A stretch of DNA of 64,000 nt from an uncultured Gammaproteobacteria bacterium. GTDB lineage: Bacteria; Patescibacteriota; Microgenomatia; Levybacterales; UBA12049. The notes beneath the pieces were generated by a model, which searched no databases, was not told where the DNA came from, and saw only the letters and a list, made by a program, of their open reading frames with translations. Position 1 is the first letter of the stretch. Each line of letters begins with the position of its first letter. The translations under genes were made by a program, and so were the position numbers. This document shows positions 25,225-43,864 of this stretch, piece by piece. Where the stretch lies: NCBI GenBank assembly GCA_964416505.1, contig CAYQEJ010000003.1, positions 54,034-118,033 of the forward strand. The letters are read 5' to 3'.

Positions 25225-25262
25225 TTAACAATATTTAAGCACAATTGATTTAGTCTTACAAC

Positions 25263-25784: not shown

Positions 25785-25785
25785 C

Positions 25786-28053: not shown

Positions 28054-28055
28054 AT

Positions 28056-29999: not shown

Positions 30000-30643
30000 A
30001 TTTTCATTTTTCCAGTAACCATGGGAGTTATGATATCTTTGGATACTCCCGAGCTGCTTTCGTTGTTATAGATCTCATAAAAAAGCCTAATTAGTTCGTC
30101 TTTTTCCAAAATTTTTGATTTCAAACCGGATCTTAAAAGCTCTTGGATTATAGATGAAGATTTGGAAGTTAATAAATTTTTTGCATCTCTTATTATCGCA
30201 TCTCTGTCTCTTGAGTTTGCAATTCCTCCAGCTCCTTTTTCAAGATACGAGTACGAAATGGAGATATAAAATTTTTTATCAAGAACTGTATTTTTTTGAA
30301 CAAGTTGAGAAACGAATTCTTTATACATTCTAATGTGTTCTGAGAATGTTGGGTTAGATGCTTTCGCAGCTTGTTCCTCGAGTAGTTTTTGATAATTACT
30401 GATATCGAGTTTTCTGCTCAAAATTACTATTTGAATAGGAAAAGATAGGGAGTTGATGAGCGAAGCATAAGAGAGAATTTTTATTTCTTGTTCTTCTTTG
30501 GATTGTAATGCAAAATTTGTCGCTGTAACTTCTATAACCATACACACACTTCCTCCGGACATAAGAACTAGGCTGTCTATAATGTCCTCAATCTCTATAA
30601 ACTTTTGTGTTGTCGCTATGGTTTTTGGGGCAGAGTTTTTCAT
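29996..30643 (-). CDS. Hypothetical cytoplasmic protein (215 aa) translationally coupled between the VirB3-like and VirB4-like genes
   Basis: No TM or signal. Overlaps the VirB4-like start by 4 nt and abuts the upstream gene. No recognisable family. Confidence 0.45.
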   Translation of the reverse strand: MKNSAPKTIATTQKFIEIEDIIDSLVLMSGGSVCMVIEVTATNFALQSKEEQEIKILSYASLINSLSFPIQIVILSRKLDISNYQKLLEEQAAKASNPTFSEHIRMYKEFVSQLVQKNTVLDKKFYISISYSYLEKGAGGIANSRDRDAIIRDAKNLLTSKSSSIIQELLRSGLKSKILEKDELIRLFYEIYNNESSSGVSKDIITPMVTGKMKI

Positions 30644-31942
30644 TTAATTAAATAATTCCCTTCTTAATTCTTCCCTGGGATCTACTGAAAAAATTTCAAG
30701 CGGCATAATTGGTGTTCCGTTCGCTTCAATTTCCACGGTGTCAAACTTATTTTGTCCTTTTGGATCTTCAATAGAAACTATGTATTTCCCGTTTTGAAGA
30801 GAAGTTGCCGATGCAAATTGCCCAAGCCCATTTGTTTTAAAAGCTCTCACTGGATTGTCTTCTGGATCTTTTACCTCGACTAGAATATTTGGTAGGGGAT
30901 TCCCTCTAGGATCTTTAATGATCCCAGTTATTAGATTTGGATCTGCGGGAGCTGTGGGGAGGCCAACGCTTTTTACTAATGCAGGAGGGGCTTTTCTAAC
31001 TCTTTGGGTCTGGGGAAGAGGTTGTGCCGTAATTGGATTAAATTTCGTTTTTTCTGTTCCTTCAAGTCTAGCCTTAAGAGATAATAATTCTTTCTCAAGC
31101 GCCTCCTTTTGTCTGTTTGCTTCGATAAGCATTTTCTCAAGTTCTTCTGATTTTTGATGAGTAGTTGAGTCTGTTTGAGGAGTTGAGTTATTTTCTATAG
31201 CTTTTGCTTCAACAAGCTCTTTCTGAAGTGCGGAAACTTGTTCTTCGAGTTTTCTTTCATTTTCTTCTATTTTTTCTTCCTCCTCTTTTTCTTTGATTTT
31301 TTCAAGATCATCAAGATTCCCAGACATAATAGGTTTATTGTTGGGATCATTTAATTCGATTACTCTGCCTGGGACCTGAGTTATAGGAGTGTTTATTTGT
31401 GGTGCGCTCTGTGGCTGCGGAGCAGGAACAGGTTGAATGATTTGGGCTTGTGTTTGGATCGGGGTTTGTTGGATAGGTTGTTGATAGTTGATGGGGGTTG
31501 GTGTTTGTATCTGTGTTTGTGTTTGTAAAGGCATATTGGTAGGTGGTAGTGGAGCAGGTGTGTTAAGTTGAGGAGGAGTTGATTGGAGTACAGGATTTAA
31601 TGGTGTTTGTGGGGCACTAGGATTCATTTGTGAGAGATTTCCACCAGTTTTTCTATAGATATATTGGGTAGGGGAGAAAAGAGCTCTAATGAAATTTCCA
31701 ATCATGGTATCCATAGGTCTTCCGTCAATAGGAACAAACGCTAATGCAACACCAAGAGAGAGAAATAATACTGCTAAGGGGAGTCTAATCAGTATAAATA
31801 TCGGTAAGATAAAAAATATAAACCAGGCAATTACTGTTCCACCGGCAAGGTAGGCAAACTGCTTTACGGTCATGTTGCCAATAAGTTTAAATTGAAATCC
31901 TGTAATGTCTTGTGGTATTGGATGGTTTTCCATAGGCAGCAA
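30644..31942 (-). CDS. PrgI/VirB3-like two-TM N-domain, followed by a P/Q/T-rich linker, a coiled coil and a C-terminal beta-sandwich (carboxypeptidase-regulatory-like) domain
   Basis: The N-terminal 100 aa are MLPMENHPIPQDITGFQFKLIGNMTVKQFAYLAGGTVIAWFIFFILPIFILIRLPLAVLFLSLGVALAFVPIDGRPMDT, a hydrophobic hairpin as in PrgI/VirB3-family proteins that precede VirB4. The C-terminus IKDPRGNPLPNILVEVKDPEDNPVRAFKTNGLGQFASATSLQNGKYIVSIE is Big/CarbopepD_reg-like. Confidence 0.45.
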   Translation of the reverse strand: MLPMENHPIPQDITGFQFKLIGNMTVKQFAYLAGGTVIAWFIFFILPIFILIRLPLAVLFLSLGVALAFVPIDGRPMDTMIGNFIRALFSPTQYIYRKTGGNLSQMNPSAPQTPLNPVLQSTPPQLNTPAPLPPTNMPLQTQTQIQTPTPINYQQPIQQTPIQTQAQIIQPVPAPQPQSAPQINTPITQVPGRVIELNDPNNKPIMSGNLDDLEKIKEKEEEEKIEENERKLEEQVSALQKELVEAKAIENNSTPQTDSTTHQKSEELEKMLIEANRQKEALEKELLSLKARLEGTEKTKFNPITAQPLPQTQRVRKAPPALVKSVGLPTAPADPNLITGIIKDPRGNPLPNILVEVKDPEDNPVRAFKTNGLGQFASATSLQNGKYIVSIEDPKGQNKFDTVEIEANGTPIMPLEIFSVDPREELRRELFN

Positions 31943-32070
31943 AATAAATACAAATAAGAGCTCTTTGCTTCATACTAGAATATAACGTGAAAAATAGCGT
32001 TTCAAGGCTATCAAAATGAATCAATTTTTGAGGATTTTGAAGCTAATTGTGAAAACAACTTTTTAGACAC

Positions 32071-32700
32071 TTAATTTTGACAAGTGTAGATTATATCTCC
32101 CGCATGATTAAGCTTTTTGCATGTTCTGTTAAGAGCACAGTATCCATGAGGATGCGCTTCGCTGCAAGGAAATTGGCATGTGTAGTGACTACCTGTATCG
32201 TTTGGCACGCAGATTCTACCCGTAGGGCATATTCCGTCCGGATGTTGATTGTTGCATCTATAAGCGACGCTATCGGGAACACATTGATCAAATCCAAATG
32301 TTGAAATGCAGGCGTTTACTCCAGTTAGTCTTATTATGAAAGGTAATATTATTACTGATAATAAAATTAAGGTTAATCCCAAAATAGAAAAAGTAAGTGT
32401 TTTTTTGGCCCCATCTGCTTTTTTTGCATCACCTCCAGAGCTAACAAATTTAAATCCGGAAATTATAATCATGGCTACTGCGACAATTCCTGCGAAAATA
32501 AACACCCAGTAAATTACGTTTCCTAGGATAATTGGTAGGCAGTTAAGCGTTGCTACCTGGTTCGATCCGCCAGTTAGACATCCAGATCCTCCAAGAGGGG
32601 TAAAATTTGCAGCAAAAACATTTGGGGTGAAAAAAAGAAATCCAGAAATTAACAAAAAGAAAAATAAAAACTTTTTCACTGATAAATAAAAGCGTAACAA
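32071..32700 (-). CDS. VirB2/TrbC-like pilin paralog 1 with a Cys-rich C-terminal extension
   Basis: Signal peptide, hydrophobic helix, loop SGFKFVSSGGDAKKADGAKK, second hydrophobic helix, then a 75-aa tail containing 11 Cys. Confidence 0.5.
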   Translation of the reverse strand: MLRFYLSVKKFLFFFLLISGFLFFTPNVFAANFTPLGGSGCLTGGSNQVATLNCLPIILGNVIYWVFIFAGIVAVAMIIISGFKFVSSGGDAKKADGAKKTLTFSILGLTLILLSVIILPFIIRLTGVNACISTFGFDQCVPDSVAYRCNNQHPDGICPTGRICVPNDTGSHYTCQFPCSEAHPHGYCALNRTCKKLNHAGDIIYTCQN

Positions 32701-32721
32701 AGAAGATGTTAAATTACAAGA

Positions 32722-33141
32722 TTAACGAGGAGCTACTAGTGTAGGGAGAGTGAAGCTGCTGTTAAGTAGGCTTCCGATTCCGAAGAATTGTAATGCGAGG
32801 TTGATGATGAAGTAGGAAAGAAATACTAGTACTAATCCTACCAGTGCAGCTACGATCATTCCTCTTGCAGCATCTACTTTTCCTTTATCTCCACCTGATG
32901 TAATCCATTTAATTCCACCATATACTAGAAAACCTAAAGCTAGCAATACAGCCACTATAAATAATAGAAGAATTATTGAAGAAACTAGTGGGCCAATTCC
33001 TGCGTTACCCATATTGCAAAGAGTTGTAAATCTTCCGCCTACGCAGAGATCAAGTGTACCGCCACCTACAGCAGCAAAAGTTTTAGGGGTAAACGTTAAG
33101 AAAGAAGCGATCGATAACGATAGAGCAGTTAATTTTTTCAT
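32722..33141 (-). CDS. VirB2/TrbC-like pilin paralog 2
   Basis: Signal peptide ...TFA|AVGGG, TM1, loop WITSGGDKGKVDAARGMIVAA, and TM2. This is the classic conjugative-pilin topology. Confidence 0.55.
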   Translation of the reverse strand: MKKLTALSLSIASFLTFTPKTFAAVGGGTLDLCVGGRFTTLCNMGNAGIGPLVSSIILLLFIVAVLLALGFLVYGGIKWITSGGDKGKVDAARGMIVAALVGLVLVFLSYFIINLALQFFGIGSLLNSSFTLPTLVAPR

Positions 33142-33195
33142 TACTTATTTGATCGTATTGTGTTTTTAATTGTTTGTCAAGTACCTTTTCTGAAT

Positions 33196-33513
33196 CTAGA
33201 CTATTTGTCCAATTCCTAAAAACCAACCTAAAACATTTATTATCAAAAAAGAGGAAAGAGCAACTAGAAGTCCTATAACTGCATATGTAATTTTTTTTCT
33301 TGCAGCGTCTACTTTTCCTTTATCTCCACCTGATGTAATCCACTCAATGCCTCCCCAGACAAGAAAAGCGAGTGAGGCGAGTGTTATTAATACAAAAGCC
33401 CAGGTAAGACCATTTGTAATTACGTTTTTAAGAGTATTGAGGCCGCCTGTGGGCATCCCTGCGACAGGTTCTATAGAATATGAGCCGGGTAAGTTAAATG
33501 CAATTTTTTCCAT
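33196..33513 (-). CDS. VirB2/TrbC-like pilin paralog 3
   Basis: Shares the near-identical loop WITSGGDKGKVDAARKKITYAVIG with paralog 2, and has two flanking hydrophobic helices. Confidence 0.55.
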   Translation of the reverse strand: MEKIAFNLPGSYSIEPVAGMPTGGLNTLKNVITNGLTWAFVLITLASLAFLVWGGIEWITSGGDKGKVDAARKKITYAVIGLLVALSSFLIINVLGWFLGIGQIV

Positions 33514-34517
33514 TATCTCCCAAATCCTGGTAATCCTAGAATATCACGAGTTATTAATTCAAGTATAACTAAAGAAAATATAATAAATATAAATCCTACT
33601 ATTGCTGCCGTAAGCTGTTCTCTGGCATTTTTTACCTTATCAGGATCACCTTGGGATGTCATAAGTTTGTATCCGGCGACCAAGATTATTATGAATATTA
33701 TTCCGCCTCCAATACTTAAAACAAATCCAAGTGCCCATCTGGTAAAGTCAGTTGCTCCAGTGCTAACCATTCCAAATGCTGTTCTGACTCTTAAACATCC
33801 GCGCGCGTCATTATAGAAATTTCCATTTTTTTCGCAAGGTAAAGATAGAGGAGCATTCTTGGCATAATTTATGACTGAAGGATCATACAGGCTTCCGGCT
33901 ACGCATGTGCCTGTTCTACAGTCTCCTGTGGTAAGCGAATTGCAATAAAAACCCTCAGAGCACGTTCCCCTTACTCTCCCTCCTTTAGAACAGATTTTAT
34001 AATCGTTTGATGTTGGATCTATTTCGCAAGAATTATTTTGTCCTGGGCCCGTGGGTTCAGGGGAAGGATTTTGACCACCAGCCGTCCTAACTACTATGCC
34101 ATTGCTTCTGCAGGATGGTTGACAAGTGCCGTCTTCTTTGTAAACGCAGAGTCTAACCGTATATGTGCCAGCGCCTAAATTTCTTAGATCTCCTAGGGTA
34201 TGATCAGTCTCGCTAAATGTAACACCTGAATCTGGGTTTATAAGAATATCTTCAGATACGCATCCTTCTTGAAATTTTCCAGCTTTTGTTAATGAATCAA
34301 GAGGGCATGGGCCAGTATTTGAAGTATTAAATGCTACATAAAGACGTGTTCCTGCATCGCGGATATTGGTGAACGTAATGCTTTTAAATTTTCCTACTTG
34401 AAGTTGAGTGGGATCAGTCGTAAAAGTACAAGCATCATCTGGCCCGGCATATGCAATGGTAGTTTTTAGAGCGAAAAAAGCAATGAAAATTAACAAGGGA
34501 AAAATTATTTTCCTCAT
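33513..34517 (-). CDS. Secreted Cys-rich domain protein with a C-terminal VirB2/TrbC-like pilin module (paralog 4)
   Basis: Signal peptide, then an approximately 230-aa Cys-rich extracellular domain, then a pilin-like TM1-loop-TM2 with a degenerate MTSQGDPDKVKNAREQLTAAIVGF loop. Stop and start overlap with paralog 3. Confidence 0.5.
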   Translation of the reverse strand: MRKIIFPLLIFIAFFALKTTIAYAGPDDACTFTTDPTQLQVGKFKSITFTNIRDAGTRLYVAFNTSNTGPCPLDSLTKAGKFQEGCVSEDILINPDSGVTFSETDHTLGDLRNLGAGTYTVRLCVYKEDGTCQPSCRSNGIVVRTAGGQNPSPEPTGPGQNNSCEIDPTSNDYKICSKGGRVRGTCSEGFYCNSLTTGDCRTGTCVAGSLYDPSVINYAKNAPLSLPCEKNGNFYNDARGCLRVRTAFGMVSTGATDFTRWALGFVLSIGGGIIFIIILVAGYKLMTSQGDPDKVKNAREQLTAAIVGFIFIIFSLVILELITRDILGLPGFGR

Positions 34518-34552
34518 AATTTTATCGTAGGCAAAACTAGAATTAATTGCAA

Positions 34553-35875
34553 CTATGGAGTGAATTTGAATCCGCGGCCTTTAACTGTTTGGATATGTGT
34601 TGGGGAAGAAATGTCTTTTTCAATTTTCTTTCTTAGTCTAAAAATAAGTTGATCTAAAGCTTGCTCTGTAACCCCGGCAGTAGAGGATAAATCGCCCCAA
34701 ACTGAGGATATGATTTCGTCTCTTTCAACTATTTTTTCAGGATTTAAAATAAAAAATTTAAGTAATTTAAACTCTGAAGAAGTAAGTCCTTCAGACAAAA
34801 CTATTTCGCCAATTCTAATTTCCTTAGCCGCTTCATCAAATATTATCTTTTCTTGTTTTTCGGAAATTTCTTTTTTAGCAAATTCTTCCAAGAGAGGAAC
34901 TGCAAATTTATTATTTTTAATAAGTCCTACAGCCACTAAATGAGATGATTCAGAAGCTTTTTTATTTGCGATTAGACTTTGTTCGTATGGAGAGAGAGAA
35001 TTCCAGATTTCGTAAAGAACTGATTTTACTTTAGAATTATTTTCTAAAAATTCTCTGACATCATCTTTTTTATCATTTAAGATACAGGCTTCAATGCTAA
35101 CAAGCCATAATTTACCTAATTCTCCTGTTAATTCACTAATCTTTTCAAGCGTTTTTTTATCCACATTTTTTCCACTATTTTTCTTTAGATAATCAAGTCT
35201 AAATTGTTGAATTTTTTCATCTCCTAGAGATAGGTAAACTAAATTTCCTGTTAAAAATTCATAAAAGGAAGTAATTATTTCATTTCCTGCGGTTTCTTCT
35301 AATGGCCGAGAAAGAGGAAATATGCAGGAAAAACGATATTTTGCTCTATCTCTCAATACTCTTAAGTTATCAAAGAAGATAGGCTCAAGTACTCCAACGT
35401 ATTCTTCGAATCTATCAAAAAGTAGAACTATAGTTAATTCTTTTTCAAGACATAAATAGTCAATCGTTTTTTTTAGACCCTGGAAGATCACAAGTTCATC
35501 GCCTGATTTTAGACTCTCATCAAATATTTTTTTAAGAGCTTTATGCTCTTCGTTCATTTTTCTCTCCGCTAGAGAATCCAAGATTTCCAAAAACATATAC
35601 TTTGTAGATTCGGAAAGTGGCCTTTTTTTAATTTCTGCAAAATTCATCATTACGAAATGAAACCACTTTGTGTTTTCTTTAAGGTGAAGTTCGCGAGCTT
35701 TTGAATTGTATGCGAGAATTCTTAAGATGTTTGATCTTCCAACTCCTGGAAGAGAAATTACCTGAGCAGAATTTCCAACTCTTACAAAAGAAAGAATTTT
35801 CTCTATCTCAGAATATCTTGCGTCTTCAGGGTAAAGTGATTCGAAGTGTTTTGGTTCCATAGCTAGGTAAAACAA
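34553..35875 (-). CDS. Transcriptional regulator: N-terminal STAND/AAA-like ATPase domain, C-terminal OmpR/PhoB-type winged helix (Trans_reg_C)
   Basis: P-loop-like VISLPGVGRSNILRIL. The C-terminus ERDEIISSVWGDLSSTAGVTEQALDQLIFRLRKKIEKD....IQTVKGRGFKF matches the Trans_reg_C/CadC wHTH consensus. The domain order is the reverse of SARP/AfsR regulators. Confidence 0.55.
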   Translation of the reverse strand: MFYLAMEPKHFESLYPEDARYSEIEKILSFVRVGNSAQVISLPGVGRSNILRILAYNSKARELHLKENTKWFHFVMMNFAEIKKRPLSESTKYMFLEILDSLAERKMNEEHKALKKIFDESLKSGDELVIFQGLKKTIDYLCLEKELTIVLLFDRFEEYVGVLEPIFFDNLRVLRDRAKYRFSCIFPLSRPLEETAGNEIITSFYEFLTGNLVYLSLGDEKIQQFRLDYLKKNSGKNVDKKTLEKISELTGELGKLWLVSIEACILNDKKDDVREFLENNSKVKSVLYEIWNSLSPYEQSLIANKKASESSHLVAVGLIKNNKFAVPLLEEFAKKEISEKQEKIIFDEAAKEIRIGEIVLSEGLTSSEFKLLKFFILNPEKIVERDEIISSVWGDLSSTAGVTEQALDQLIFRLRKKIEKDISSPTHIQTVKGRGFKFTP

Positions 35876-35939
35876 TTGTAATTGTTTTATAAGGTTTATA
35901 TCAAGCTCAGATGCCTTATTTTTTCTAAACTAACGCCAT

Positions 35940-38900
35940 ATGACACACGAAATAATTATGAGACCAGGTGAATTGACAGTGCAAAGGGGACAATCTACAC
36001 TGAATAAGGAGCAAAGTATTTTTATGCCAGACGCAGGAATACAAACAGAAGGAGTTCAGCCAGTAAAACCAGCTATTAGAGCTGAGGTTTTACCTTTACC
36101 TAGAGTAACAACCAGCTTGTCTTTGGAAGGACTAACCCCGACTCAGCGTGCTGACGCTTTAAGGACAACAAGGCTTCTCGAAGGGCTCGGTTTGAAGCCT
36201 GACCAAGTTACTTCCAAAGGAAGAACAGAGCAAAAAGCAGGTCAAGTTGTTGAGAATGCACAGCTTGATAGTGAAAATCCGGAAGCATCAACTAAATCGC
36301 AGGAAATTTTAGGAAAAGGAGAATTAACAGATCAGGATAGAGCTGATCTTTTTGGATTAAACGCTGGTAGAATCGCAAAAGCAGAAGAGCTACTTAAAGA
36401 TAGTCTCGGAAGAGAATTAACTGATAAAGAAAAAGAAGGAATCTTACGCGCTCATTTTGTGGGAGCAGGGGAAAAAGGAAAAAACGGAGAAGAATCCGGA
36501 GTGTTTAATGTAACACGAGAGCAGCTTTCGGAAAAAGCAAAAATATTAAAAGATGCTGGATTTGATCAGGAGCAAAGAAGGGAAATCATAGAATCAGGTC
36601 TTACTCAAATGAATCCACCACAGCCTCTTACTCCTCTGGAGGCTAGAAACCAGGCAATTCTGGCCTTAGGGAATTTAACATTAACTGGAAAGCTTTTGGA
36701 AATCAGAGATAACATTTTAAGACTTCATAATGCTGCAATTGGAAATCCAGCTGCAGGTATTCCCGTGATTAATCCAGATGGTATTACCTCTGACGCACTA
36801 ACAGCGCTTCATAGAGAATTTTATAATAAATTTAATAAAGTACTTAATAATCCAAATACACCACCGCCACCCGAAGTTCTTCTTTTTGAAAGAAGACTTA
36901 AAGAAATTGGTGATCTTGATGCAAGAACACACGAGCAGCGTGGTCCACAAGAAGATTTCCATAATGAATATGATTTCATTAGGCTGCAATTGAATAGTAC
37001 TCCTCAATTATTGCCCAATGGAGCTCCAAATCCCCAGAGGGCAATTTTGGAAGAAGAGTTAGTTTTGAGTGTAGAAAATTTTGTGGGACATGGCATAAAC
37101 CCATCCAGTGATAGTATTTATGACTCTACTCTTAAAAAAATAGTGCAAACTGATACTTTGGTAAGTGATCCTGATCTTCAGGCAAGAATTCAGTCATCTG
37201 TTCAGAGGTTGGTTATTAGAATTGTGGGAATGCCACTTCAGGACGATGTGGGAGATTTTGATATTGGGTTTTATGGTGGAATTAATTTTTCAGCAATTAA
37301 AAATTTACTTTATTCACAGTCATTGGATCCTGCATATTTTAGATCTCAGCAAGAATACAATGCCTTTAGCAACTTGAGAAGAGACCAGAACTTAAGCGTA
37401 GAAGGTCTGTACCATTCTATGAGAATAGTTCATGAAATCAATAAAATGATTGTTCAGAATCAGCTTGATGCAGCAAATCAATCGGCTCCAAACTTAGGTC
37501 CTGAAGCACTGCAAATGCTTGCCAAGACAAAAGGTGCTGGCGCGATATTTAGAATTATGGAATCTGGTCTTTTGGAACTATTGGCAAAAGATGGATACAT
37601 GGCAAAGGGTTCGTATGATGCTCTGATGGGCAAGGCAATGAGTCAACAAACTGGAAGATATGATAATTCTCAAACGTCATCGATAGCTTCACAAGTTAAA
37701 GAAATGATTAGCGCTTTAAGATCATTGCCTCCTGGTATTATTCAGGCAGGAGATTTACAGGAGTTAAGAGACATGGAAAATTGGGAAATTGATTTAGCAT
37801 TTAATCTTGGAAGAAATATGTATAACGTTTTACATAGGTCTGCGGAGCTGGCTTCATGGGGAAGGCTTCCGAAAGGACTCAAGCTTTACACAAATTCTGT
37901 TTTTGGAGGATTTAGAAATATTTATAATCCTGCCCTTCATGTTATAGAAAGGTTTAAGCCCGGCGAAGGTAGAGGAGGATACAGATTATTCCAGATGTTT
38001 ATGGATGCGATGCAAAGACGAAGAGAAAGAGAGGGATTTGGTCATATGGGGCTTAAAAAACTTCATGGAGATTTAATTAAGTATTTTGAACTGCCTTCGA
38101 TTGCAGGTATGAGAGGGTATGTCTCATCTTGGAAAGCGAACGAAGGAGTTCTTAAAGTAATCGAAACCGGTTACGCTCCAAGAGGTAGATTTGCAGATCT
38201 AGATATATTTTCGCAAGTACAACTTAGAGAAGCAGGTTCTCAGATTTTTGATAGAAATGGAGGGGTAATTACTGGAAAAGGAATTGGATATTTCCTGGAT
38301 GTAGATGCTCTTACTTTTAAAGATGGTCAAGGGAGAACATATTCATGGAAAGATTTTTCAGATGCTGAGCAAGCTGATTATTATAGATCAATTTTCTTTG
38401 AGCCAAATACAGGTGGACATGGTCATGATCCAGTGTTAAAAAGAGATATAAACATAGGATTGGGAACTCTTTATAAAACAGCACTTGGGCCAGCAGGGGG
38501 ACATGAAGCACATAAAAATCATCATCATTTAAATGAGGTTAAAGAAGAAATAAGGCGTCTTATCTGGGAAAGAGTAGGAGCGGATAATCCCCTTGCAGTT
38601 TTACCGTATCTACATAGGCTTGAATTTAGTGGTGATCATAAACCAGTTGATGTGGGCCATCACGGGACGCCGCACTTAGTAGATGTTGCAGGCACAAAAT
38701 TGCTTGAAGATATTTATGATAGGCCTGGTTGGCAAGATTTTCAAGTGAAGCTTATGCTTCTAAATGAATGGAGAATGTCAAAAATTAAACAAGGAAATAC
38801 TAATTACACATTGCAGGACGCAATAAATGAAATGGATACAGCAATGGGTGTTCAAAGAGATCCTGTGACCCATGCAATTATTCAGGGGGGAAATCAAAGC

Positions 38901-39653
38901 CTAAATCTTAGTGGGGATGAATATGCATGGTATCAGGAGATAGCAAGAGGTGCGAAATTAGCTTCAGCAGATATGGCAAATGTAAGATTTGGATTTGTGG
39001 CTTTCGCAAACGATCTCCCACTGGAGCAATTTAACTTTGAGGTTTTAGGTGACAACTCTTATCAGAGGCATTTTGGCGATATTGTACAGATTAACAGTTC
39101 AACGGGGGCTATGATAGAGGCATTCGATAATTTGGGAACAGTAAAAGATTATCATGGAATAGTTGAGATTGTGGCAAAATTTGAAAAAGGTATAACGGCT
39201 GTGCATGGAGATGGTGCAGCTAAGGATAAAGCTGCTCCGTTGGTTGAGGCAATTACAAGATTTTTCAGGAGAGGAGAAAATGGCGGCTCAAAGAGTCATA
39301 AGGATGAAAATGAAAAATCTTTTTCTGAAAAAGCTAAGCGTTATTTTAGGCAATGGGATGAAGTTCATGGTCTACTTCAGCAATTTCATAAGGCTAATTC
39401 TATCGCACAGCAATTTTACAACGTTGAGGCATTAGCTCTTGATAGGCATCAATTGTATATGCTTCAGGAAGAGCTTATGGCAAATGGTCTCATGGGGCAT
39501 GATCAAGAAGAAGAGTTCAGGGAAAGATTCGGAGGATTCTTAGGATTTATTAATAGAATGTTTATTGAGCAATTTAGTAGGCTTTTGAAAGTTACATCTC
39601 TAATCACTACGAGAAACTTACTGGGTAGTTCATTTAAGGGTATAGGTCAATAA
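35940..39653 (+). CDS. Giant hypothetical protein (1237 aa), no signal peptide or TM, no recognisable catalytic motif; candidate cargo or effector of the adjacent T4SS-like apparatus
   Basis: Single uninterrupted ORF. GC visibly higher than neighbouring genes. No HUH relaxase motif, no Walker motifs. Divergent from the regulator gene and convergent with the VirB6-like gene (stops 4 bp apart). Confidence 0.55.
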   Translation: MTHEIIMRPGELTVQRGQSTLNKEQSIFMPDAGIQTEGVQPVKPAIRAEVLPLPRVTTSLSLEGLTPTQRADALRTTRLLEGLGLKPDQVTSKGRTEQKAGQVVENAQLDSENPEASTKSQEILGKGELTDQDRADLFGLNAGRIAKAEELLKDSLGRELTDKEKEGILRAHFVGAGEKGKNGEESGVFNVTREQLSEKAKILKDAGFDQEQRREIIESGLTQMNPPQPLTPLEARNQAILALGNLTLTGKLLEIRDNILRLHNAAIGNPAAGIPVINPDGITSDALTALHREFYNKFNKVLNNPNTPPPPEVLLFERRLKEIGDLDARTHEQRGPQEDFHNEYDFIRLQLNSTPQLLPNGAPNPQRAILEEELVLSVENFVGHGINPSSDSIYDSTLKKIVQTDTLVSDPDLQARIQSSVQRLVIRIVGMPLQDDVGDFDIGFYGGINFSAIKNLLYSQSLDPAYFRSQQEYNAFSNLRRDQNLSVEGLYHSMRIVHEINKMIVQNQLDAANQSAPNLGPEALQMLAKTKGAGAIFRIMESGLLELLAKDGYMAKGSYDALMGKAMSQQTGRYDNSQTSSIASQVKEMISALRSLPPGIIQAGDLQELRDMENWEIDLAFNLGRNMYNVLHRSAELASWGRLPKGLKLYTNSVFGGFRNIYNPALHVIERFKPGEGRGGYRLFQMFMDAMQRRREREGFGHMGLKKLHGDLIKYFELPSIAGMRGYVSSWKANEGVLKVIETGYAPRGRFADLDIFSQVQLREAGSQIFDRNGGVITGKGIGYFLDVDALTFKDGQGRTYSWKDFSDAEQADYYRSIFFEPNTGGHGHDPVLKRDINIGLGTLYKTALGPAGGHEAHKNHHHLNEVKEEIRRLIWERVGADNPLAVLPYLHRLEFSGDHKPVDVGHHGTPHLVDVAGTKLLEDIYDRPGWQDFQVKLMLLNEWRMSKIKQGNTNYTLQDAINEMDTAMGVQRDPVTHAIIQGGNQSLNLSGDEYAWYQEIARGAKLASADMANVRFGFVAFANDLPLEQFNFEVLGDNSYQRHFGDIVQINSSTGAMIEAFDNLGTVKDYHGIVEIVAKFEKGITAVHGDGAAKDKAAPLVEAITRFFRRGENGGSKSHKDENEKSFSEKAKRYFRQWDEVHGLLQQFHKANSIAQQFYNVEALALDRHQLYMLQEELMANGLMGHDQEEEFRERFGGFLGFINRMFIEQFSRLLKVTSLITTRNLLGSSFKGIGQ

Positions 39654-39657
39654 TTAG

Positions 39658-41262
39658 TTATCCTCCCAATCCCAATAGTGAGGAAATAGCTCTGCCTCTC
39701 TTTCTGTTTGCTGGATTAGGATCCATTGGATCATGGACAATAGTTGAATAAGTCTTTAAGCCTCCTCTAATAGATTTGCCTGCTTCTCCGGCCGGTTCAA
39801 ATACTGGGCCAAAATTAATAGCTGGAGCTTTAATTGCGCCTCTAGTTATGCTTAAAACATGAGGAGTCATAAATAAAAACCCAAGAGCTACTACACCTGA
39901 AAATATCTGACTTGATGTTCCCGTACCACCGCCTACTAGTGGTGGGATAAAAAGTGAACCAGAAGTGACTACATCTTGACTTGTAGCTGCGATATTGCTG
40001 AAAACTTTTCCAAGTACAAGCATGGACATAGCGGTAGGGAATACTGCGAGATTTGCTAGCATATCTTTAAACCATGCGCCTATTCCAGCACTTGACCCCG
40101 GTAGTAATCCGAGAAGAAGCCAGAAGGGGGCAAAAACTATATCGAGAAGTATGTTTATGTATGCAGTTATAAGAATGATCCAAAGCCTTATGGCTGTATA
40201 AATCAAAGCTAGGAAAATTATTAATGCTGATACTATTCCAACTATAAGGCCTACAACAGCAGTAAATAAATTACCGATTATATCTGCAAATCCTGGCTCA
40301 AGATTTATCTGGCCTTTTCCTGTAGGTCCATTTAATGCTGAAGTTACAAGATTTCTTATAGTATCGGACCCTTGTGCGGCTAGTTCCGGGAAGCCTCCTT
40401 TCACACCTGTATAAATTTCCCCTGATCCTCCAGGCCAAAGCCTATTTATAGCATCAAAAGGAGTAGGAGAAGTAGAGACTTGACCAAAATTTGTAATTTC
40501 GTGCCCAGGAATACTGGACAATACTCCTCCTACGAGATAAAGAGCAACATACATAACATCAATTAGAAGACCAGCTATGGCAAACGAAAAGGTAACAAGG
40601 ACAATTCCTAAAACAATTTTAGGGATCTGATTTTCTATAGTCATAATAGTGCGGGGATCTATGTGTACTCGAAACATTATTGCTAAACCGATTAACACAA
40701 AGACCAATACGAATAATAGATATGCGATATTTCTCATAGCTACCCATACTTGAAGAAGGGGTCTAATGCCACAAAAACCAACTCCTTCTGGTTTGTTTGC
40801 ACAGTCGCTTACTACAAGCGCTTGTGCGTACGTTTTTTGCGTGACCCCAAAATTCCCTGCCATATATTTAATATAATCACCGCTTGAAGCGGGAGGAGTA
40901 AACGTTGAAGCTATCATTTGAACCAAGATTCCGTAAGCACCCCCGCCATTTTCCACGAAACCTATTTTTCCAGTCTGAGGATTAAGCCCTAAGCATCTGT
41001 GGTCAGGTCTAATTGGATCTATTCCTCCGAGTTGACATACTGCAGCTGCCATGATTTCCATGAAAGTTGATTGAACATATGTTCTTTGGTCATTGGGCAC
41101 ATCTGAATCAAAATTTGATGAGTAATCATAGGAGGAATTGGGAGCACTGTATTTTTCGCTTGTGATTTCAGACGGAGTTTGAGCAAATCCATTTTTAGTA
41201 AATATGAAAATAAATGAGGCTAAAAAGACAACGAAAAACAAAACTCGGGCAGAGATTTTCAT
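39658..41262 (-). CDS. VirB6/TrbL-like polytopic inner-membrane protein
   Basis: 534 aa with signal peptide MKISARVLFFVVFLASFIFIFTKNGFA, an approximately 140-aa external domain with 3 Cys, and at least 6 TM helices with Gly/Ala-rich loops. Size and topology match TrbL/VirB6. Family assignment by architecture only. Confidence 0.45.
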   Translation of the reverse strand: MKISARVLFFVVFLASFIFIFTKNGFAQTPSEITSEKYSAPNSSYDYSSNFDSDVPNDQRTYVQSTFMEIMAAAVCQLGGIDPIRPDHRCLGLNPQTGKIGFVENGGGAYGILVQMIASTFTPPASSGDYIKYMAGNFGVTQKTYAQALVVSDCANKPEGVGFCGIRPLLQVWVAMRNIAYLLFVLVFVLIGLAIMFRVHIDPRTIMTIENQIPKIVLGIVLVTFSFAIAGLLIDVMYVALYLVGGVLSSIPGHEITNFGQVSTSPTPFDAINRLWPGGSGEIYTGVKGGFPELAAQGSDTIRNLVTSALNGPTGKGQINLEPGFADIIGNLFTAVVGLIVGIVSALIIFLALIYTAIRLWIILITAYINILLDIVFAPFWLLLGLLPGSSAGIGAWFKDMLANLAVFPTAMSMLVLGKVFSNIAATSQDVVTSGSLFIPPLVGGGTGTSSQIFSGVVALGFLFMTPHVLSITRGAIKAPAINFGPVFEPAGEAGKSIRGGLKTYSTIVHDPMDPNPANRKRGRAISSLLGLGG

Positions 41263-41337
41263 TAATTTAAGTTTGATCCATTTTCACTTTTATGTCAAGT
41301 TGGCTTCAAGCTCAAAAGCTGGTAAAATATATAGAGT

Positions 41338-41424
41338 GGAGAGGTCGCATAGTGGACTAGTGCGGCTGTCTTGAAAACAGCTGTGGGTGCAAGCCTACCG
41401 CGAGTTCGAATCTCGCCCTCTCCG
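41338..41424 (+). tRNA. tRNA-Ser (anticodon TGA), class II with a long variable arm
   Basis: GGAGAGG acceptor pairs with CCTCTCC. Anticodon stem-loop GCTGT-cTTGAAaa-ACAGC. 22-nt variable arm, T-arm GAGTTCGAATCTC. 87 nt; CCA not encoded. Confidence 0.85.
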
Positions 41425-41425
41425 C

Positions 41426-43864
41426 TTATCTCTGTCTAGGGTTTGAGTTTATCCCCCCGCTCACTTGACCCGTAGTGCTTCGTATAGAATTTACTAAAAA
41501 TGAAAGTCCAATTGCGCTTAGGAAGTTTGTTAATCCTTCTTTTCTTTTTTTTCTTTTGATGATTTCATGCTCTATTCTATATGCTTCATAAGCCATTTGC
41601 GCTAAGGTAATCTCCTCAGCGTTCCCTTTAGTCACTGTTTCTTCTAGTCTTTTTTTTGCTGCTTTTAATGCTTCATTTGCGTCTGATTCCATTTCTTCAA
41701 GCTCAGTAGAAAATTCTCTATTTCTTGCTTTTGCTCGAATCTCTGCGCTTTCAAAGGCTTTTTTGTATGCCTCATCGCGCTTTTTAATTGCGTTTGCTAA
41801 TTCTTCATCGGTCATTTTTCTTGGTTTACCATCTCTTTGGGCAGCTTGTTCCAGGAAAATTTCCATATTTAATCTTAATAAAGCTTCTTTTACTTCAGCT
41901 TCTGCTAATCTCCTTTCCAATATCTTTCTGTCCTCAACGCTTAAGGCTCCTTTCATTTCAGCAATTCTTAGTTCTTCCCGTGCTTCATCTACGAGCGTAA
42001 ATACTTTTCTTTCGGGTGCCGCTTGATTATGTTCATCATCGGTATCTGGGAGTTGTTCATCTGTTTCTAATATTTCTTCAGCTTCATCTCTAGGATCAAT
42101 TATTTGATCCACTGGTTGAGATGATGGCTCCATGGCTGTCTCGGTGGCTCCTTCAAGACCTTGTGCAGCTGAAATCATATCGCTAAGTCCCTGATTTGCT
42201 TCAGATGCTTTTATGAATTTTACATTTGGGAATGCCTCTTGAAGTCTTGGAATGGCATCATAATAAGCCTCGTGTACGATTACTCCAGCTATTCCGCCAT
42301 CTTTTAAAGATTGGCCTGGTTTTCCTAGTACAATAAAGCTTCCGTTATCTTTAACGCTTATTGCTGCAGCATTTGGTTTTGAATCAAGATTGGCTGTAAA
42401 GAAACTGGCTTCTTGATCTATGCCATTTGTTAGAAGGTTATTAAGACTTACTAAATCCTGCGTGGTTCCCTTTGCAATCCCATGTGCATCAAATTGAGAA
42501 GCGAGTTCAGGAGGGATTGATCTTCTGGTATCAACTAGCATATAAGGGTCATATGGGAATTCTTCGCCATCAACTAATTCATTTGGATGTTCTTCGATGA
42601 ATCTCTGTGCTTTTCCTGCCATTGCTTGAACTTCATCGGAAGACAATCCAGTTCGATTCGCTTCTGCTGTAGTGGGTGCTGGAACAGATTCTGGCGCTGT
42701 AGCTGAAGTTGCATCTCTTTTTGCTTTTCTTGCGATTGCTTCAGAGAGGCCATGATGTCCTTTTTCGGCATATGCTTTGGATTTTTCAGGATACCGCGCT
42801 AGATATGCATCCCATCCATTCATTTCTTCAATATCTCGTGCAGCTTGAGCTTTCTCTCTCCTACTTGAAGGATCAGCGCTTTGAACTTCAGGGTGTGCAT
42901 TTGCTTTTTCTATAATTTGTGCTTGAAACCTGGTAAGTTCTGGATCTAAATCTGGGTGGTCATAGATATGATCTGGTCCGATGGTTTCCAATCTTGGTGG
43001 ACCAGCGGTAAATCCTTCGGGGAGATTTACGTTTCCTGCTGATTGTGGGGATGTCTCTGGCAAATTTGATGGGTTTATCATTTCCCCGAGACCTTCTGTC
43101 ATTTGATCTGCTCTAATAAATTTTACTCCTGGGTATGCTTCTTGAAGCCTTGGAATAGCATCGTAAAAAGCTTCATTTACTAAAACTGCTGCTATTTCAC
43201 CTCTGGGGTTTTCTGGCGTTTCAATCTTGCCGTCGGGTTTACTAAGGATGATAAAATTTCCCGTATCATATGCTAGGCCACCCATTGCAGATGCAACTTG
43301 AGCTTCAATTTCTGGTGGAACTTTTAATGGTACAGTATGGAAATCACGAGCCTGGTCAATACCGGTAGTTAAAAAAGTATTTAAAGCCGCAAGTTGGTCT
43401 TTGTATCCTCCCTTTGCAATTCCATGCGCATCAAATCTTTGACCTATCTCAACAGGAAGTTGACCTCTCACTCCTACCATGAGATCATCTTGTTCATATT
43501 TAATTTCCTGAATAAATCCAGTTGATTCTGGTATTGGATGATCTCTTATGAAAACAGCAGCATTAGTTCCTAATTCTTGTATTTCTTGGGGGGAAAGGCC
43601 AGTTCTTGTTACTTCCTGACTTGTTAAGCCTGCTGCGTCAGCTAAGCCTGCGTCTATTCTTGGCGGATTTGCTGTTAGATCTGCTTCAATCGCTCCCGCC
43701 AATGCTGTGTTAGCTGCAACCTGCGCAGCATCTGGTGCTTTGGGTGCAGTGGGAGCAGCAGGTGCCCTTACTGCTTCTGCTGGCCGTGGTGCTCCATCTG
43801 GCATTCCTGGTGTTGTAGTCATACGTTCTATCATAAGTCTAGATTTATAAGCTAAGTTTGTCAA
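41426..43864 (-). CDS. Large hypothetical protein (812 aa) with an internal tandem duplication of an approximately 330-aa module, a C-terminal coiled coil and a C-terminal TM anchor
   Basis: Repeated blocks: QFDAHGIAKGGYKDQLAALNTFLTTGIDQ / QFDAHGIAKGTTQDLVSLNNLLTNGIDQ, and FYDAIPRLQEAYPGVKFIRADQMTEGLGEMI / YYDAIPRLQEAFPNVKFIKASEANQGLSDMI. GC-richer than surrounding genes. The stop is 2 nt from the tRNA-Ser 3' end. Confidence 0.55.
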   Translation of the reverse strand: MTNLAYKSRLMIERMTTTPGMPDGAPRPAEAVRAPAAPTAPKAPDAAQVAANTALAGAIEADLTANPPRIDAGLADAAGLTSQEVTRTGLSPQEIQELGTNAAVFIRDHPIPESTGFIQEIKYEQDDLMVGVRGQLPVEIGQRFDAHGIAKGGYKDQLAALNTFLTTGIDQARDFHTVPLKVPPEIEAQVASAMGGLAYDTGNFIILSKPDGKIETPENPRGEIAAVLVNEAFYDAIPRLQEAYPGVKFIRADQMTEGLGEMINPSNLPETSPQSAGNVNLPEGFTAGPPRLETIGPDHIYDHPDLDPELTRFQAQIIEKANAHPEVQSADPSSRREKAQAARDIEEMNGWDAYLARYPEKSKAYAEKGHHGLSEAIARKAKRDATSATAPESVPAPTTAEANRTGLSSDEVQAMAGKAQRFIEEHPNELVDGEEFPYDPYMLVDTRRSIPPELASQFDAHGIAKGTTQDLVSLNNLLTNGIDQEASFFTANLDSKPNAAAISVKDNGSFIVLGKPGQSLKDGGIAGVIVHEAYYDAIPRLQEAFPNVKFIKASEANQGLSDMISAAQGLEGATETAMEPSSQPVDQIIDPRDEAEEILETDEQLPDTDDEHNQAAPERKVFTLVDEAREELRIAEMKGALSVEDRKILERRLAEAEVKEALLRLNMEIFLEQAAQRDGKPRKMTDEELANAIKKRDEAYKKAFESAEIRAKARNREFSTELEEMESDANEALKAAKKRLEETVTKGNAEEITLAQMAYEAYRIEHEIIKRKKRKEGLTNFLSAIGLSFLVNSIRSTTGQVSGGINSNPRQR

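What the first reader, a model, noticed from the sequence alone, without database searches (positions are those of the whole stretch)
35940..39653. 1237-aa domain-less protein with elevated GC, encoded between the regulator and VirB6-like genes: candidate secreted substrate, not a relaxase
Very large soluble protein with no Sec signal, no TM and no nucleotide-binding or HUH motifs that I can see. Its base composition is visibly GC-richer than flanking genes, suggesting horizontal origin or a different selective regime. Its position next to VirB6 and divergent from the regulator is where T4SS effectors or surface proteins are often encoded.
Basis: inference. Interest (0 to 1): 0.6.

Follow-up and report, generated by a model that had tools for sequence, protein, structure and literature searches.

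The report
Hypervariable giant protein in CPR secretion locus
The 1237-residue protein is real and belongs to an undescribed family with no known fold that sits in the type IV secretion-like gene cluster of ultrasmall symbiotic (CPR) bacteria; recombination swaps its body between strains, which makes it a testable candidate for what that essential but substrate-less machine exports or presents to the host.

Summary
The ORF (35940-39653, +) is real, has no leader and no hit in Pfam, NCBIfam, PHROGs, PADLOC or PDB. The GC claim fails: GC is 0.389 (z about 1.1), GC3 is ordinary, and it matches the surrounding genes. The window is a Levybacteria-like (CPR/Patescibacteria) chromosome with a T4SS-like cluster next to dnaA/dnaN.

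An exhaustive profile search finds about 630 distant relatives. Wherever context could be read, the gene lies beside a Trans_reg_C regulator and converges on a roughly 530-620-aa polytopic membrane protein. A confident AlphaFold model (pLDDT 93) is mainly alpha-helical and matches nothing in the PDB.

Shared family features:
- a conserved N-terminal peptide motif;
- a mobile helical module that also occurs in signal-peptide-bearing Bacteriovorax proteins;
- tenfold cysteine depletion;
- a basic-plus-hydrophobic C-terminal tail.

The gene is a recombination mosaic. Two genomes 95-99% identical in the flanking proteins share only 56% here. The breakpoints are sharp, the core's synonymous sites are saturated, and the N-terminal part and the core have discordant histories.

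Best reading (about 0.5): an exported or host-contacting polymorphic substrate or component of the T4SS-like machine. Main rival (about 0.3): a cytoplasmic, membrane-tethered accessory. It is not a relaxase or a coupling ATPase.

The parts
35940..39653 (+). The 1237-aa ORF ('BIG'). Member of an undescribed CPR protein family, with no cysteine, no signal peptide and no TM segment.
35940..36050 (+). aa 1-37: conserved N-terminal linear motif (M.E...ELT...(P)TL...IFM.[DE].G..TE). Candidate recognition or loading signal.
   Evidence: Invariant residues E4, E11, L12, T13, T20, I27, F28, M29, D31, E37 among the 10 close homologues. The motif sits at the extreme N-terminus of 42 of the 155 family sequences held; those outside the close group are about 20% identical to the window protein.
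36051..36347 (+). aa 38-136: low-confidence, probably disordered linker followed by the first short helices.
   Evidence: pLDDT below 50 for residues 1-113 of homologue P0006. The region is rich in insertions and deletions in the alignment.
36348..36623 (+). aa 137-228: small helical module (..LGR.LT..E..AIL.AH.VG.GE.GK...GV.N....QL.EKA.ILK.AGF..EQRR.I.E.G). A mobile domain absent from Pfam.
   Evidence: It is the most conserved block of the close family. It recurs 2-3 times in other proteins (P0092 with ankyrin repeats, P0139, P0149), in Gracilibacteria ORFs, and in Bacteriovorax proteins that carry signal peptides.
36624..37139 (+). aa 229-400: Pro-rich hinge and fast-evolving helical region. 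The 5' recombination breakpoint maps to about aa 235.
   Evidence: Identity is 14-56% among close homologues and dN/dS is 0.3-0.6. DNA identity between L001 and L006 collapses at gene nt ~700.
37140..39509 (+). aa 401-1190: core shared by the whole superfamily. Mainly alpha-helical with small beta elements and no PDB relative. It behaves as an exchangeable allele cassette.
39510..39650 (+). aa 1191-1237: C-terminal tail, a basic/acidic cluster followed by a long amphipathic helix (FLGFINRMFIEQFSRLLKVTSLITTRNLL). In distant relatives the equivalent segment is a basic cluster plus a 22-28-aa hydrophobic stretch with an embedded R-D pair.
35876..35939 (.). 64-nt divergent intergenic region shared with the regulator gene (presumed promoters).
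   Evidence: consensus matches only
34553..35875 (-). 440-aa regulator with a C-terminal OmpR/PhoB-type winged-helix domain and no receiver domain. It is the conserved neighbour of the family.
39658..41262 (-). 534-aa polytopic membrane protein in the VirB6 position, convergent with the ORF. It is adjacent in every locus whose contig reaches that side, and 41-42% identical where BIG is only ~22-24%.
41426..43864 (-). 812-aa cysteine-free protein with an internally duplicated ~300-aa unit, a coiled coil and a basic-plus-hydrophobic C-terminal tail. Its length and sequence vary between genomes.
32071..34517 (-). Array of four VirB2-like (T4SS_pilin) genes. The one next to the regulator is an extended, polymorphic pilin.
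28056..31942 (-). VirB4-like ATPase (28056-29999), a 215-aa protein whose orthologues hit PF26593 TraC-like (29996-30643), and a PrgI/VirB3-like protein (30644-31942).
   Evidence: TraC-like from the precomputed Pfam hits on the orthologues

Best explanation
The ORF encodes a lineage-specific, polymorphic partner of the T4SS-like machine of Microgenomatia-type CPR bacteria. Most likely it is exported or presented by that machine at the contact with the host cell.

Shown:
- It is a fixed element of the locus, lying between the regulator and the convergent polytopic membrane protein.
- It has a modular build: a conserved N-terminal peptide, a disordered linker, a small mobile helical module, a large helical core with no PDB relative, and a basic/hydrophobic tail.
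- It is cysteine-free.
- From about residue 235 to the stop codon it is replaced between strains by homologous recombination, while purifying selection acts within each allele class.

Inferred:
- The conserved N-terminal peptide and module are the handle by which the conserved machinery recognises the protein. This part is much less diverged than the core in the closest genome pair, but it is itself exchanged between lineages and does not simply follow the genome.
- The variable core is the part that meets a variable host target.
- The C-terminal basic-plus-hydrophobic segment mediates membrane association, either in the target membrane or at the VirB6-position protein.
For: Locus membership:
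- Same gene order in L001, L003, L005 and L006.
- Same gene order around the distant relative P0035, which is 24% identical over the best aligned stretch and sits in a full VirB4/TraC-like/PrgI/pilin cluster.
- Regulator and convergent membrane protein also flank P0067.
- A convergent large ORF also follows P0009, and L014 has a convergent membrane protein 41% identical to the window's.

Hypervariability and recombination:
- L001 and L006 are 97.5, 95.3, 97.4 and 98.9% identical in four flanking proteins but 56% in this one.
- DNA identity is 94-99% in the regulator gene and 83-91% over the first ~700 nt of the ORF. It then falls to 36-73% up to the stop codon and returns to 97% in the next gene.
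- Synonymous divergence is 0.19-0.52 in the flanks and 0.34 in the N-terminal part, but saturated in the core (pS 0.73).
- For L003 versus L005 the pattern is reversed: N-terminal dS is 0.125 against flank dS of about 1.7.
- The N-terminal part and the core give discordant identity matrices.
- dN/dS within the core is 0.06-0.21, so the alleles are functional.

Hints of export:
- 0 Cys in 1237 aa against 8.7 expected (Poisson P about 1.6e-4). Family Cys frequency is 0.07% against 0.71% for the other ORFs of the window, and 81 of 126 long members have none.
- The N-terminal motif is present in 42 of the 155 family sequences held.
- The N-terminal ~110 residues are disordered in the homologue model.
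- The module is shared with Bacteriovorax proteins that carry signal peptides.

Background from the literature:
- The Patescibacterial T4SS is essential for epibiotic growth, lacks a relaxase and a nearby coupling protein, and has no known substrate (PMC10633639; PMC12102498; PMC12857230).
Against: - No secretion has been observed.
- Classical T4SS signals are C-terminal and depend on a coupling protein, and none is encoded in this locus.
- The gene is universally present and syntenic, as a machine part would be, rather than patchy like most effectors.
- Cysteine-poor cytoplasmic proteins exist in the same window (VirB4 has 1 Cys in 647 aa).
- In distant relatives the C-terminal segment looks like a tail anchor (KD up to 2.3), which would fit a cytoplasmic protein tethered to its own cell's membrane.
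- No catalytic or toxin domain and no immunity-like gene is present.
- The host of these organisms is unknown.
Confidence: 0.5

Rival explanations
1. A cytoplasmic accessory of the T4SS-like machine that is tethered to the membrane. Its C-terminal hydrophobic or amphipathic helix would dock it at the membrane or at the convergent VirB6-position protein. It would act as an assembly platform, a gate, or a substitute for the missing coupling protein, recruiting cargo through its helical surfaces.
For: - Strict co-occurrence and convergent pairing with the polytopic membrane protein across deep divergence.
- No signal peptide.
- A family-wide C-terminal basic cluster plus hydrophobic segment resembling a tail anchor, with KD19 1.5-2.3 in distant members.
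- Universal presence in the locus.
- A large helical scaffold-like fold.
Against: - A cytoplasmic part that binds conserved partners would be expected to evolve at the pace of those partners. Instead its core is replaced by ancient divergent alleles while VirB4, the regulator and the membrane protein stay 95-99% identical.
- Tenfold cysteine depletion.
- The module is shared with secreted Bacteriovorax proteins.
- In the window's own subfamily the tail is not hydrophobic enough for a TM helix (KD 0.96).
Confidence: 0.3
2. A polymorphic toxin-like or antagonistic effector aimed at competitors or host cells. A conserved N-terminal trafficking region would carry a swappable killing or manipulating body, as in LXG, Rhs, CdiA or X-Tfe proteins.
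For: - A less diverged N-terminal region with a recombining downstream body and a sharp breakpoint.
- The module also occurs in Bacteriovorax secreted proteins, one of which (L015) has a C-terminal region that by my reading alone could be toxin-like.
Against: - The variable part is one homologous ~900-aa fold in all alleles, not an assortment of unrelated toxin domains.
- No known toxin or enzyme domain in 43 diverse members.
- No room for an immunity gene: a 4-nt gap separates the ORF from the next, conserved, gene.
- No PADLOC or PHROG hits.
Confidence: 0.1
3. A highly divergent DNA-processing protein (relaxase or primase-like) or coupling ATPase of a conjugation-derived system.
For: [quoted passage not shown] The gene sits in a T4SS-like locus.
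Against: - No relaxase, HUH, Toprim or P-loop family in this protein or its relatives.
- The GEKGK stretch lacks the Walker A Ser/Thr and is deleted in P0003.
- The His-rich segments are not conserved.
- No structural match to relaxases or FtsK/VirD4-like ATPases.
Confidence: 0.03

Closest known systems
Helicobacter pylori CagA (single large T4SS substrate encoded inside the cag T4SS island). The CagA properties below are from my own knowledge, not from a tool result.
   Same: About 1200 aa. Mainly alpha-helical with a fold of its own. No Sec signal. Encoded within the secretion locus. Marked allelic diversity between strains. Membrane association through basic surfaces.
   Different: No sequence or structural similarity. 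CagA's signal region is C-terminal and it uses a dedicated chaperone and a coupling protein. Here the conserved element is N-terminal and no coupling protein is nearby. CagA diversity is concentrated in C-terminal repeats, whereas here the whole core is exchanged.
Polymorphic toxin / effector architectures (LXG-T7SS, CdiA-CT, Rhs, Xanthomonas X-Tfe with XVIPCD). Family properties are from my own knowledge.
   Same: A less diverged trafficking-type region joined to a downstream part that recombination exchanges between strains, with a sharp breakpoint at the junction.
   Different: The exchanged part is always the same homologous fold and not alternative toxin domains. There is no immunity gene and no recognised toxin domain. 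X-Tfe signals are C-terminal.
Patescibacterial T4SS-like locus (MPF_FATA-derived, near dnaA, with VirB2-like pilin arrays), as described in PMC12102498 and PMC10633639
   Same: The window carries this locus: VirB4, a TraC-like protein, PrgI/VirB3, a pilin array, proximity to dnaA/dnaN, and no relaxase or T4CP nearby.
   Different: Neither these two papers nor the passages of the review PMC12857230 that I read mention a ~1000-1250-aa leaderless protein as a conserved element of the locus. They also report VirB6 homologues as scarce in Microgenomatia.
Variable pilin or adhesin loci kept diverse by recombination (for example the VirB2 paralogue arrays of Bartonella and Anaplasma cited in PMC12102498)
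   Same: Diversification of host-facing parts next to conserved machinery genes. In this locus the extended pilin and the 812-aa neighbour are also polymorphic.
   Different: This protein has no pilin domain, no signal peptide and no TM segment.

Membership tests
Conjugative relaxases (MOB families) | Relaxase/HUH or Rep_trans-type catalytic domain recognisable by profile | tested here: not met
   No Pfam or NCBIfam hit in the protein or in 43 diverse relatives. No structural match.
Type IV coupling proteins (VirD4/TcpA) and VirB4-type ATPases | P-loop NTPase domain with Walker A and B motifs | tested here: not met
   No AAA, FtsK or TraG family hit. The only GxxxxGK-like stretch (GAGEKGKN) lacks the Ser/Thr and is deleted in P0003.
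T4SS substrates / effectors | Translocation that depends on the T4SS | not testable with these tools
   Needs experiments in a cultivable relative.
T4SS substrates / effectors | C-terminal secretion signal (positively charged or Glu-rich unstructured tail) recognised by a T4CP | tested here: inconclusive
   Net charge is +2 over the last 20 residues and +3 over the last 30. The tail is a conserved basic cluster plus a helix. No T4CP was recognised in the cluster genes scanned, 24030-44910. The most conserved short motif is N-terminal.
Polymorphic toxin systems | Conserved N-terminal trafficking region with a recombining C-terminal part | tested here: met
   Sharp breakpoint near aa 235, and discordant histories of the N-terminal part and the core.
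Polymorphic toxin systems | Alternative, unrelated C-terminal toxin domains of known families | tested here: not met
   All alleles share one homologous core. No toxin domain in 43 members.
Polymorphic toxin systems | Cognate immunity gene immediately downstream that varies with the toxin | tested here: not met
   A 4-nt gap separates the ORF from a convergent, conserved membrane-protein gene.
CagA family | Sequence or fold similarity to CagA | tested here: not met
Tail-anchored membrane proteins | A single hydrophobic TM helix within about 30 residues of the C-terminus and no N-terminal signal | tested here: inconclusive
   Window protein: highest KD19 is 0.96, which is below a TM threshold. 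Distant relatives: C-terminal KD19 of 1.5-2.3, but with an embedded R-D pair.
Patescibacterial T4SS-like gene cluster (as an accessory element of the locus) | Conserved position within the virB4-centred cluster across genomes | tested here: met
   Clusters are visible around the gene in L001, L003, L005 and L019. Partial context is visible in L006, L007, L014 and L021.
   No Pfam hit at E <= 10. A distant orthologue has a TrbL hit at E = 3.3 only. Topology and position are compatible.

The most novel reading that the evidence does not exclude
This family is the long-sought cargo, or the host-contacting end, of the essential Patescibacterial T4SS-like machine. It would be a leaderless protein of a previously unseen fold, recognised through a new N-terminal signal rather than the classical C-terminal one. 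Its body would exist as ancient allele classes that are shuffled between strains to match or evade different hosts, making it a host-range determinant of episymbiotic CPR bacteria.
Probability: 0.3. Interest if true: 0.85.

Novelty: new variant of a known kind. Interest (0 to 1): 0.62.

Why it matters
The T4SS-like system of Patescibacteria is essential for epibiotic growth in the one genetically tractable species. It lacks a relaxase and a nearby coupling protein, and nobody knows what it moves (PMC10633639; PMC12102498; PMC12857230).

This protein is conserved within the locus, cysteine-free, leaderless and built from modules, and recombination keeps its body in deeply divergent allele classes. 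That gives the field a concrete candidate to test. It also supplies a defined N-terminal motif and a defined mobile module to mutate, and a marker for strain-level host specificity in metagenomes.

Two by-products come out of the work. One is a family of several hundred representative sequences that has no Pfam model and no fold match in the PDB. The other is evidence that the k-mer-prefiltered search (9 hits) greatly understated the size of that family (630 hits).

Tried and rejected
- Composition as evidence of foreign origin: rejected. GC z is 1.1 and GC3 z is 0.47, the same as the neighbouring genes.
- Domain searches of the target against Pfam, NCBIfam, PHROGs and PADLOC: nothing. Pfam on 43 diverse relatives gave only unrelated fusions, namely ankyrin in P0092 and sub-threshold hits in P0139.
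- PDB by sequence, with a single sequence, the 90-sequence profile and the module profile: nothing significant.
- AlphaFold-database library: not available, so structural relatives among predicted structures were not searched.
- The search for related loci with the 90-sequence alignment failed because no stretch was conserved enough. With the 10-sequence alignment it used only N-terminal-module patterns, so it returned the known loci plus module-only hits.
- Third homology search, with the module alignment: two short uninformative hits.
- Cluster-member look-up for taxon names: no names.
- Viral contigs: no relative.
- Co-variation of the core allele class with the adjacent extended pilin or the 812-aa neighbour: not strict.
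- Promoter and terminator scan: consensus matches only, nothing decisive.
- Walker A reading of GEKGK: rejected.
Full report
**1. The observation**

The ORF at 35940-39653 (+) is real: 1237 codons from ATG to stop. The start is supported because the first residues (MT.E..., ELT, TLN, IFM.D.G..TE) are conserved in every homologue.

The protein has no match in Pfam, NCBIfam, PHROGs, PADLOC or the PDB sequence set. Its highest 19-residue Kyte-Doolittle mean is 0.96, so there is no signal peptide and no TM helix.

The composition claim does not hold:
- The window is 35.5% GC and the ORF is 38.9%. That is z = 1.08 against 45 ORFs of at least 150 aa, rank 8.
- GC3 is 0.260 against a mean of 0.244 (z = 0.47).
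- The excess lies in first codon positions.
- All genes from 24448 to 43864 share the same 0.38-0.415 level. Only the adjacent regulator (0.32) makes the ORF look GC-rich.

**2. Context**

The window is chromosomal. It carries rpoD, dnaG, purA, purB, ruvB, a class I aminoacyl-tRNA synthetase gene, dnaA, dnaN and two PBP genes.

Immediately after dnaA/dnaN, on the minus strand, lies a T4SS-like cluster of the kind described for Patescibacteria:
- a weak C39-like peptidase;
- a 755-aa membrane protein whose C-terminus has what reads by eye as an SLT-like motif;
- a VirB4-like ATPase;
- a 215-aa protein whose orthologues hit PF26593 TraC-like;
- a PrgI/VirB3-like protein;
- four T4SS_pilin genes;
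- a 440-aa protein with a C-terminal OmpR/PhoB-type DNA-binding domain.

The target ORF is divergent from that regulator, with a 64-nt spacer. It converges, with a 4-nt gap, on a 534-aa protein that has a signal-like N-terminus and at least four strong hydrophobic helices.

The 'VirB6-like' label for that neighbour is compatible with its topology and position but could not be confirmed by profile. The published survey notes that VirB6 homologues are hard to recognise in Microgenomatia (PMC12102498).

The closest genome carrying a usable organism name is a Candidatus Levybacteria / Levyibacteriota MAG.

**3. The family**

The word-indexed search found only nine homologues. They are 29-64% identical and all full length, and a profile search through the same index added none.

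The exhaustive profile search told a different story: 630 cluster representatives at E <= 1e-3, and 136 at E <= 1e-30. Most are 900-1250 aa and share profile positions ~300-1160. None of 43 diverse members has a Pfam domain in the shared core. No relative occurs in the viral contig collection.

Wherever context could be read, the gene sits in the same place:
- Same gene order in L001, L003, L005 and L006.
- A convergent ~539-aa gene next to the most divergent close homologue, P0009.
- The same order in a complete VirB4/TraC-like/PrgI/pilin/regulator cluster around P0035, which is only 24% identical over the best aligned stretch.
- Regulator and convergent 622-aa protein around the 1679-aa relative P0067.
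- A convergent 609-aa protein in L014.

The convergent membrane protein is 41-42% identical in the L019 and L014 comparisons, where L019's big protein is about 22-24% identical. So this is a fixed element of the locus and not an accessory gene with patchy presence.

**4. Anatomy**

With 10 sequences AlphaFold gave a mediocre model: pLDDT 65, with residues 1-113 of the homologue below 50. With 90 sequences the model of window residues 100-1237 is confident, at mean pLDDT 93.0 and pTM 0.82. It is mainly alpha-helical with a few short beta elements.

- Foldseek: no hit at E <= 1e-3, TM about 0.1.

Five parts can be told apart.

(a) Residues 1-37 carry a linear motif, M.E...ELT...P.L...G.IFM.[DE].G. 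It sits at the extreme N-terminus of 42 of the 155 family sequences held, including members about 20% identical to the window protein.

(b) A linker follows that is rich in insertions and deletions and is probably disordered.

(c) Residues ~137-228 form a small helical module, the best conserved block of the close family. It is mobile:
- three copies in the ankyrin-repeat protein P0092;
- two copies in P0139 and P0149;
- single copies in other proteins;
- copies in large Gracilibacteria ORFs read with code 25;
- copies in 873-880-aa Bacteriovorax proteins that begin with signal-peptide-like segments and are Cys-rich.

(d) A Pro-rich hinge and the large core follow.

(e) The C-terminal tail comes last. 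Across the superfamily it is a Lys/Arg cluster, then a 22-28-residue hydrophobic stretch with an embedded Arg-Asp pair, then a short charged end. KD19 reaches 1.5-2.3 in distant members. In the window's subfamily the tail has softened to an amphipathic helix.

Two more observations:
- The 812-aa neighbour ends in a similar basic-plus-hydrophobic tail.
- The protein has no cysteine, against 8.7 expected from the other ORFs (Poisson P about 1.6e-4). The trait is family-wide: 0.07% Cys against 0.71%, and 81 of 126 long members have none.

**5. The most informative result: the gene is a recombination mosaic**

Among five Levybacteria-type genomes, the four flanking proteins tested give one consistent picture. 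The window is the outgroup at about 70-88% identity. L001 and L006 are nearly the same organism, at 97.5, 95.3, 97.4 and 98.9%.

This protein contradicts that picture:
- L001 and L006 share only 56%.
- L003 and L001 share 49%, although their flanks are 87-96% identical.
- The window shares 65% with L003, more than L003 shares with its own close relatives.

At the DNA level, L001 versus L006 shows sharp boundaries:
- 94-99% identity through the regulator gene;
- 83-91% over the first ~700 nt of the ORF;
- 36-73% from there to the stop codon;
- 97% again in the first window of the next gene.

Synonymous sites show that this is allele replacement and not just faster protein evolution:
- For L001/L006, dS is 0.19-0.52 in the flanks and 0.34 in the N-terminal 225 codons, but saturated in the core (pS 0.73).
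- For L003/L005 the reverse holds: the flanks are near saturation (dS about 1.7), but the N-terminal 225 codons have dS 0.125.

Identity matrices by region confirm that the N-terminal part and the core have independent histories:
- L003-L005: N-terminal part 93%, core 41%.
- Window-P0008: N-terminal part 68%, core 28%.
- Window-L003: N-terminal part 61%, core 69%.

By my grouping of the core matrix there are about five to seven core allele classes among the ten sequences. Within the core, dN/dS is 0.06-0.21, so the alleles are under purifying selection. The hinge (residues 226-400) is more relaxed at 0.3-0.6.

The extended pilin next to the regulator and the 812-aa neighbour are also polymorphic, but their allele classes do not follow those of this protein strictly. 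Misassembly is an unlikely cause, because these are independent assemblies, every ORF is intact, and the breakpoints coincide with domain and gene boundaries.

**6. Interpretation**

What is shown:
- an undescribed family with no fold relative in the PDB;
- fixed in the CPR T4SS-like locus;
- modular, leaderless and cysteine-free;
- a body that exists as old allele classes exchanged by homologous recombination between less diverged anchors, namely its own 5' part and the downstream membrane-protein gene.

What is inferred:
- This pattern is typical of molecules that meet a variable partner outside the cell. A cytoplasmic subunit that binds conserved partners would be expected to follow them instead.
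- Several other observations point the same way: the cysteine depletion, the N-terminal motif plus disordered leader, the module shared with signal-peptide-bearing Bacteriovorax proteins, and the absence of any known substrate for this essential machine (PMC10633639; PMC12102498; PMC12857230).
- The best reading, at about 0.5, is therefore an exported or host-contacting polymorphic substrate or component. The N-terminal part would be the handle for the machinery, the core the host-facing part, and the C-terminal segment a membrane-association element.

The main rival, at about 0.3, is a cytoplasmic accessory tethered to the membrane. Universal presence, tight pairing with the membrane protein and the tail-anchor-like C-terminus of distant relatives all favour it.

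A classical polymorphic toxin is unlikely, at about 0.1. All alleles share one homologous fold, there is no toxin domain, and there is no room for an immunity gene.

A relaxase or coupling ATPase is excluded as far as sequence and fold comparison can exclude it.

**7. Comparison with known systems**

In function the protein resembles CagA-type single substrates encoded within a T4SS locus, and the 'conserved handle plus swappable body' logic of polymorphic effectors. It is a member of neither, because the defining features were tested and not met (see the membership table).

The locus itself is the known Patescibacterial T4SS-like system. Neither the two primary papers nor the passages of the review that I read list this protein as a component.

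**8. Verdict**

The ORF, the absence of domains and the neighbours are right. The GC claim is wrong.
- Novelty: a new variant of a known kind, that is, a polymorphic protein associated with a secretion locus, but with no PDB fold relative and an N-terminal rather than C-terminal conserved element.
- Interest: 0.62. The function is unproven, but the recombination evidence is strong. The finding turns an open question, what the CPR T4SS handles, into specific experiments.

Noticed in passing
window 36348-36623 (aa 137-228 of the ORF); also L015 9290-11911, L016 8318-10960, L017, L018, and P0092/P0139/P0149: A helical module of ~75-90 aa with no Pfam model (..LGR.LT..Q..AIL.AH.VG.GE.GK.G..AGV.NYT..QL.EKA.ILKEAGF...ERR.L.E.GI.G). 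It is mobile: it occurs in multiple copies in an ankyrin-repeat protein, in Gracilibacteria giant ORFs, and in signal-peptide-bearing Bacteriovorax proteins. It may mark proteins directed at a host or prey.
   Followed up: partly
window 41426-43864 (-): An 812-aa cysteine-free protein with an internal duplication of a ~300-aa unit (two copies of ...FDAHGIAKG...YDAIPRLQEA.P.VKFI...), a long coiled coil and a KRKKRK-plus-hydrophobic C-terminal tail. Orthologues are 465-531 aa and only 32-50% identical, except in near-identical genomes. This looks like a second polymorphic protein of the locus.
   Followed up: partly
window 33513-34517 (-) and the pilin array 32071-34517: Four VirB2-like pilin genes, of which two (334 aa and 209 aa) are extended and Cys-rich (14 and 12 Cys). 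The extended pilin next to the regulator has a conserved C-terminal pilin domain and a hypervariable N-terminal extracellular part: about 35% DNA identity between L001 and L006, which are otherwise ~97% identical.
   Followed up: partly
window 25786-28053 (-) and 24448-25224 (-): A 755-aa protein with a cytoplasmic N-terminal half and three TM helices. Its Cys-containing C-terminal domain carries a motif that by eye resembles SLT/lytic transglycosylases (ECESGH...GAWGAFQMGS). Next to it is a weak Peptidase_C39_2-like protein. Together they are candidate VirB1-type cell-wall hydrolases of the cluster.
   Followed up: no
window 34553-35875 (-): The regulator has its OmpR/PhoB-type winged helix at the C-terminus (aa 364-438), with ~340 unassigned N-terminal residues and no receiver domain. 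It accompanies the big protein in every locus seen, and once lies on the same strand upstream (L021).
   Followed up: no
window 39658-41262 (-), TM region aa ~336-390: The convergent membrane protein keeps an intramembrane Arg (IRLW) and Asp (LLDI/V) in distant orthologues. The C-terminal hydrophobic segment of distant members of the big-protein family carries an embedded Arg-Asp pair. A charge-pairing contact is conceivable but untested.
   Followed up: no
whole session (versus 44): The word-indexed homology search returned 9 relatives, while the exhaustive HMM search returned 630. For fast-evolving CPR proteins the prefiltered search badly understates family size.
   Followed up: yes
L009-L012, L014 (record titles): Several MAG records that carry this Levybacteria-type locus are titled 'uncultured Gammaproteobacteria bacterium'. 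These are evidently placeholder or wrong taxonomic labels in the deposited assemblies.
   Followed up: no
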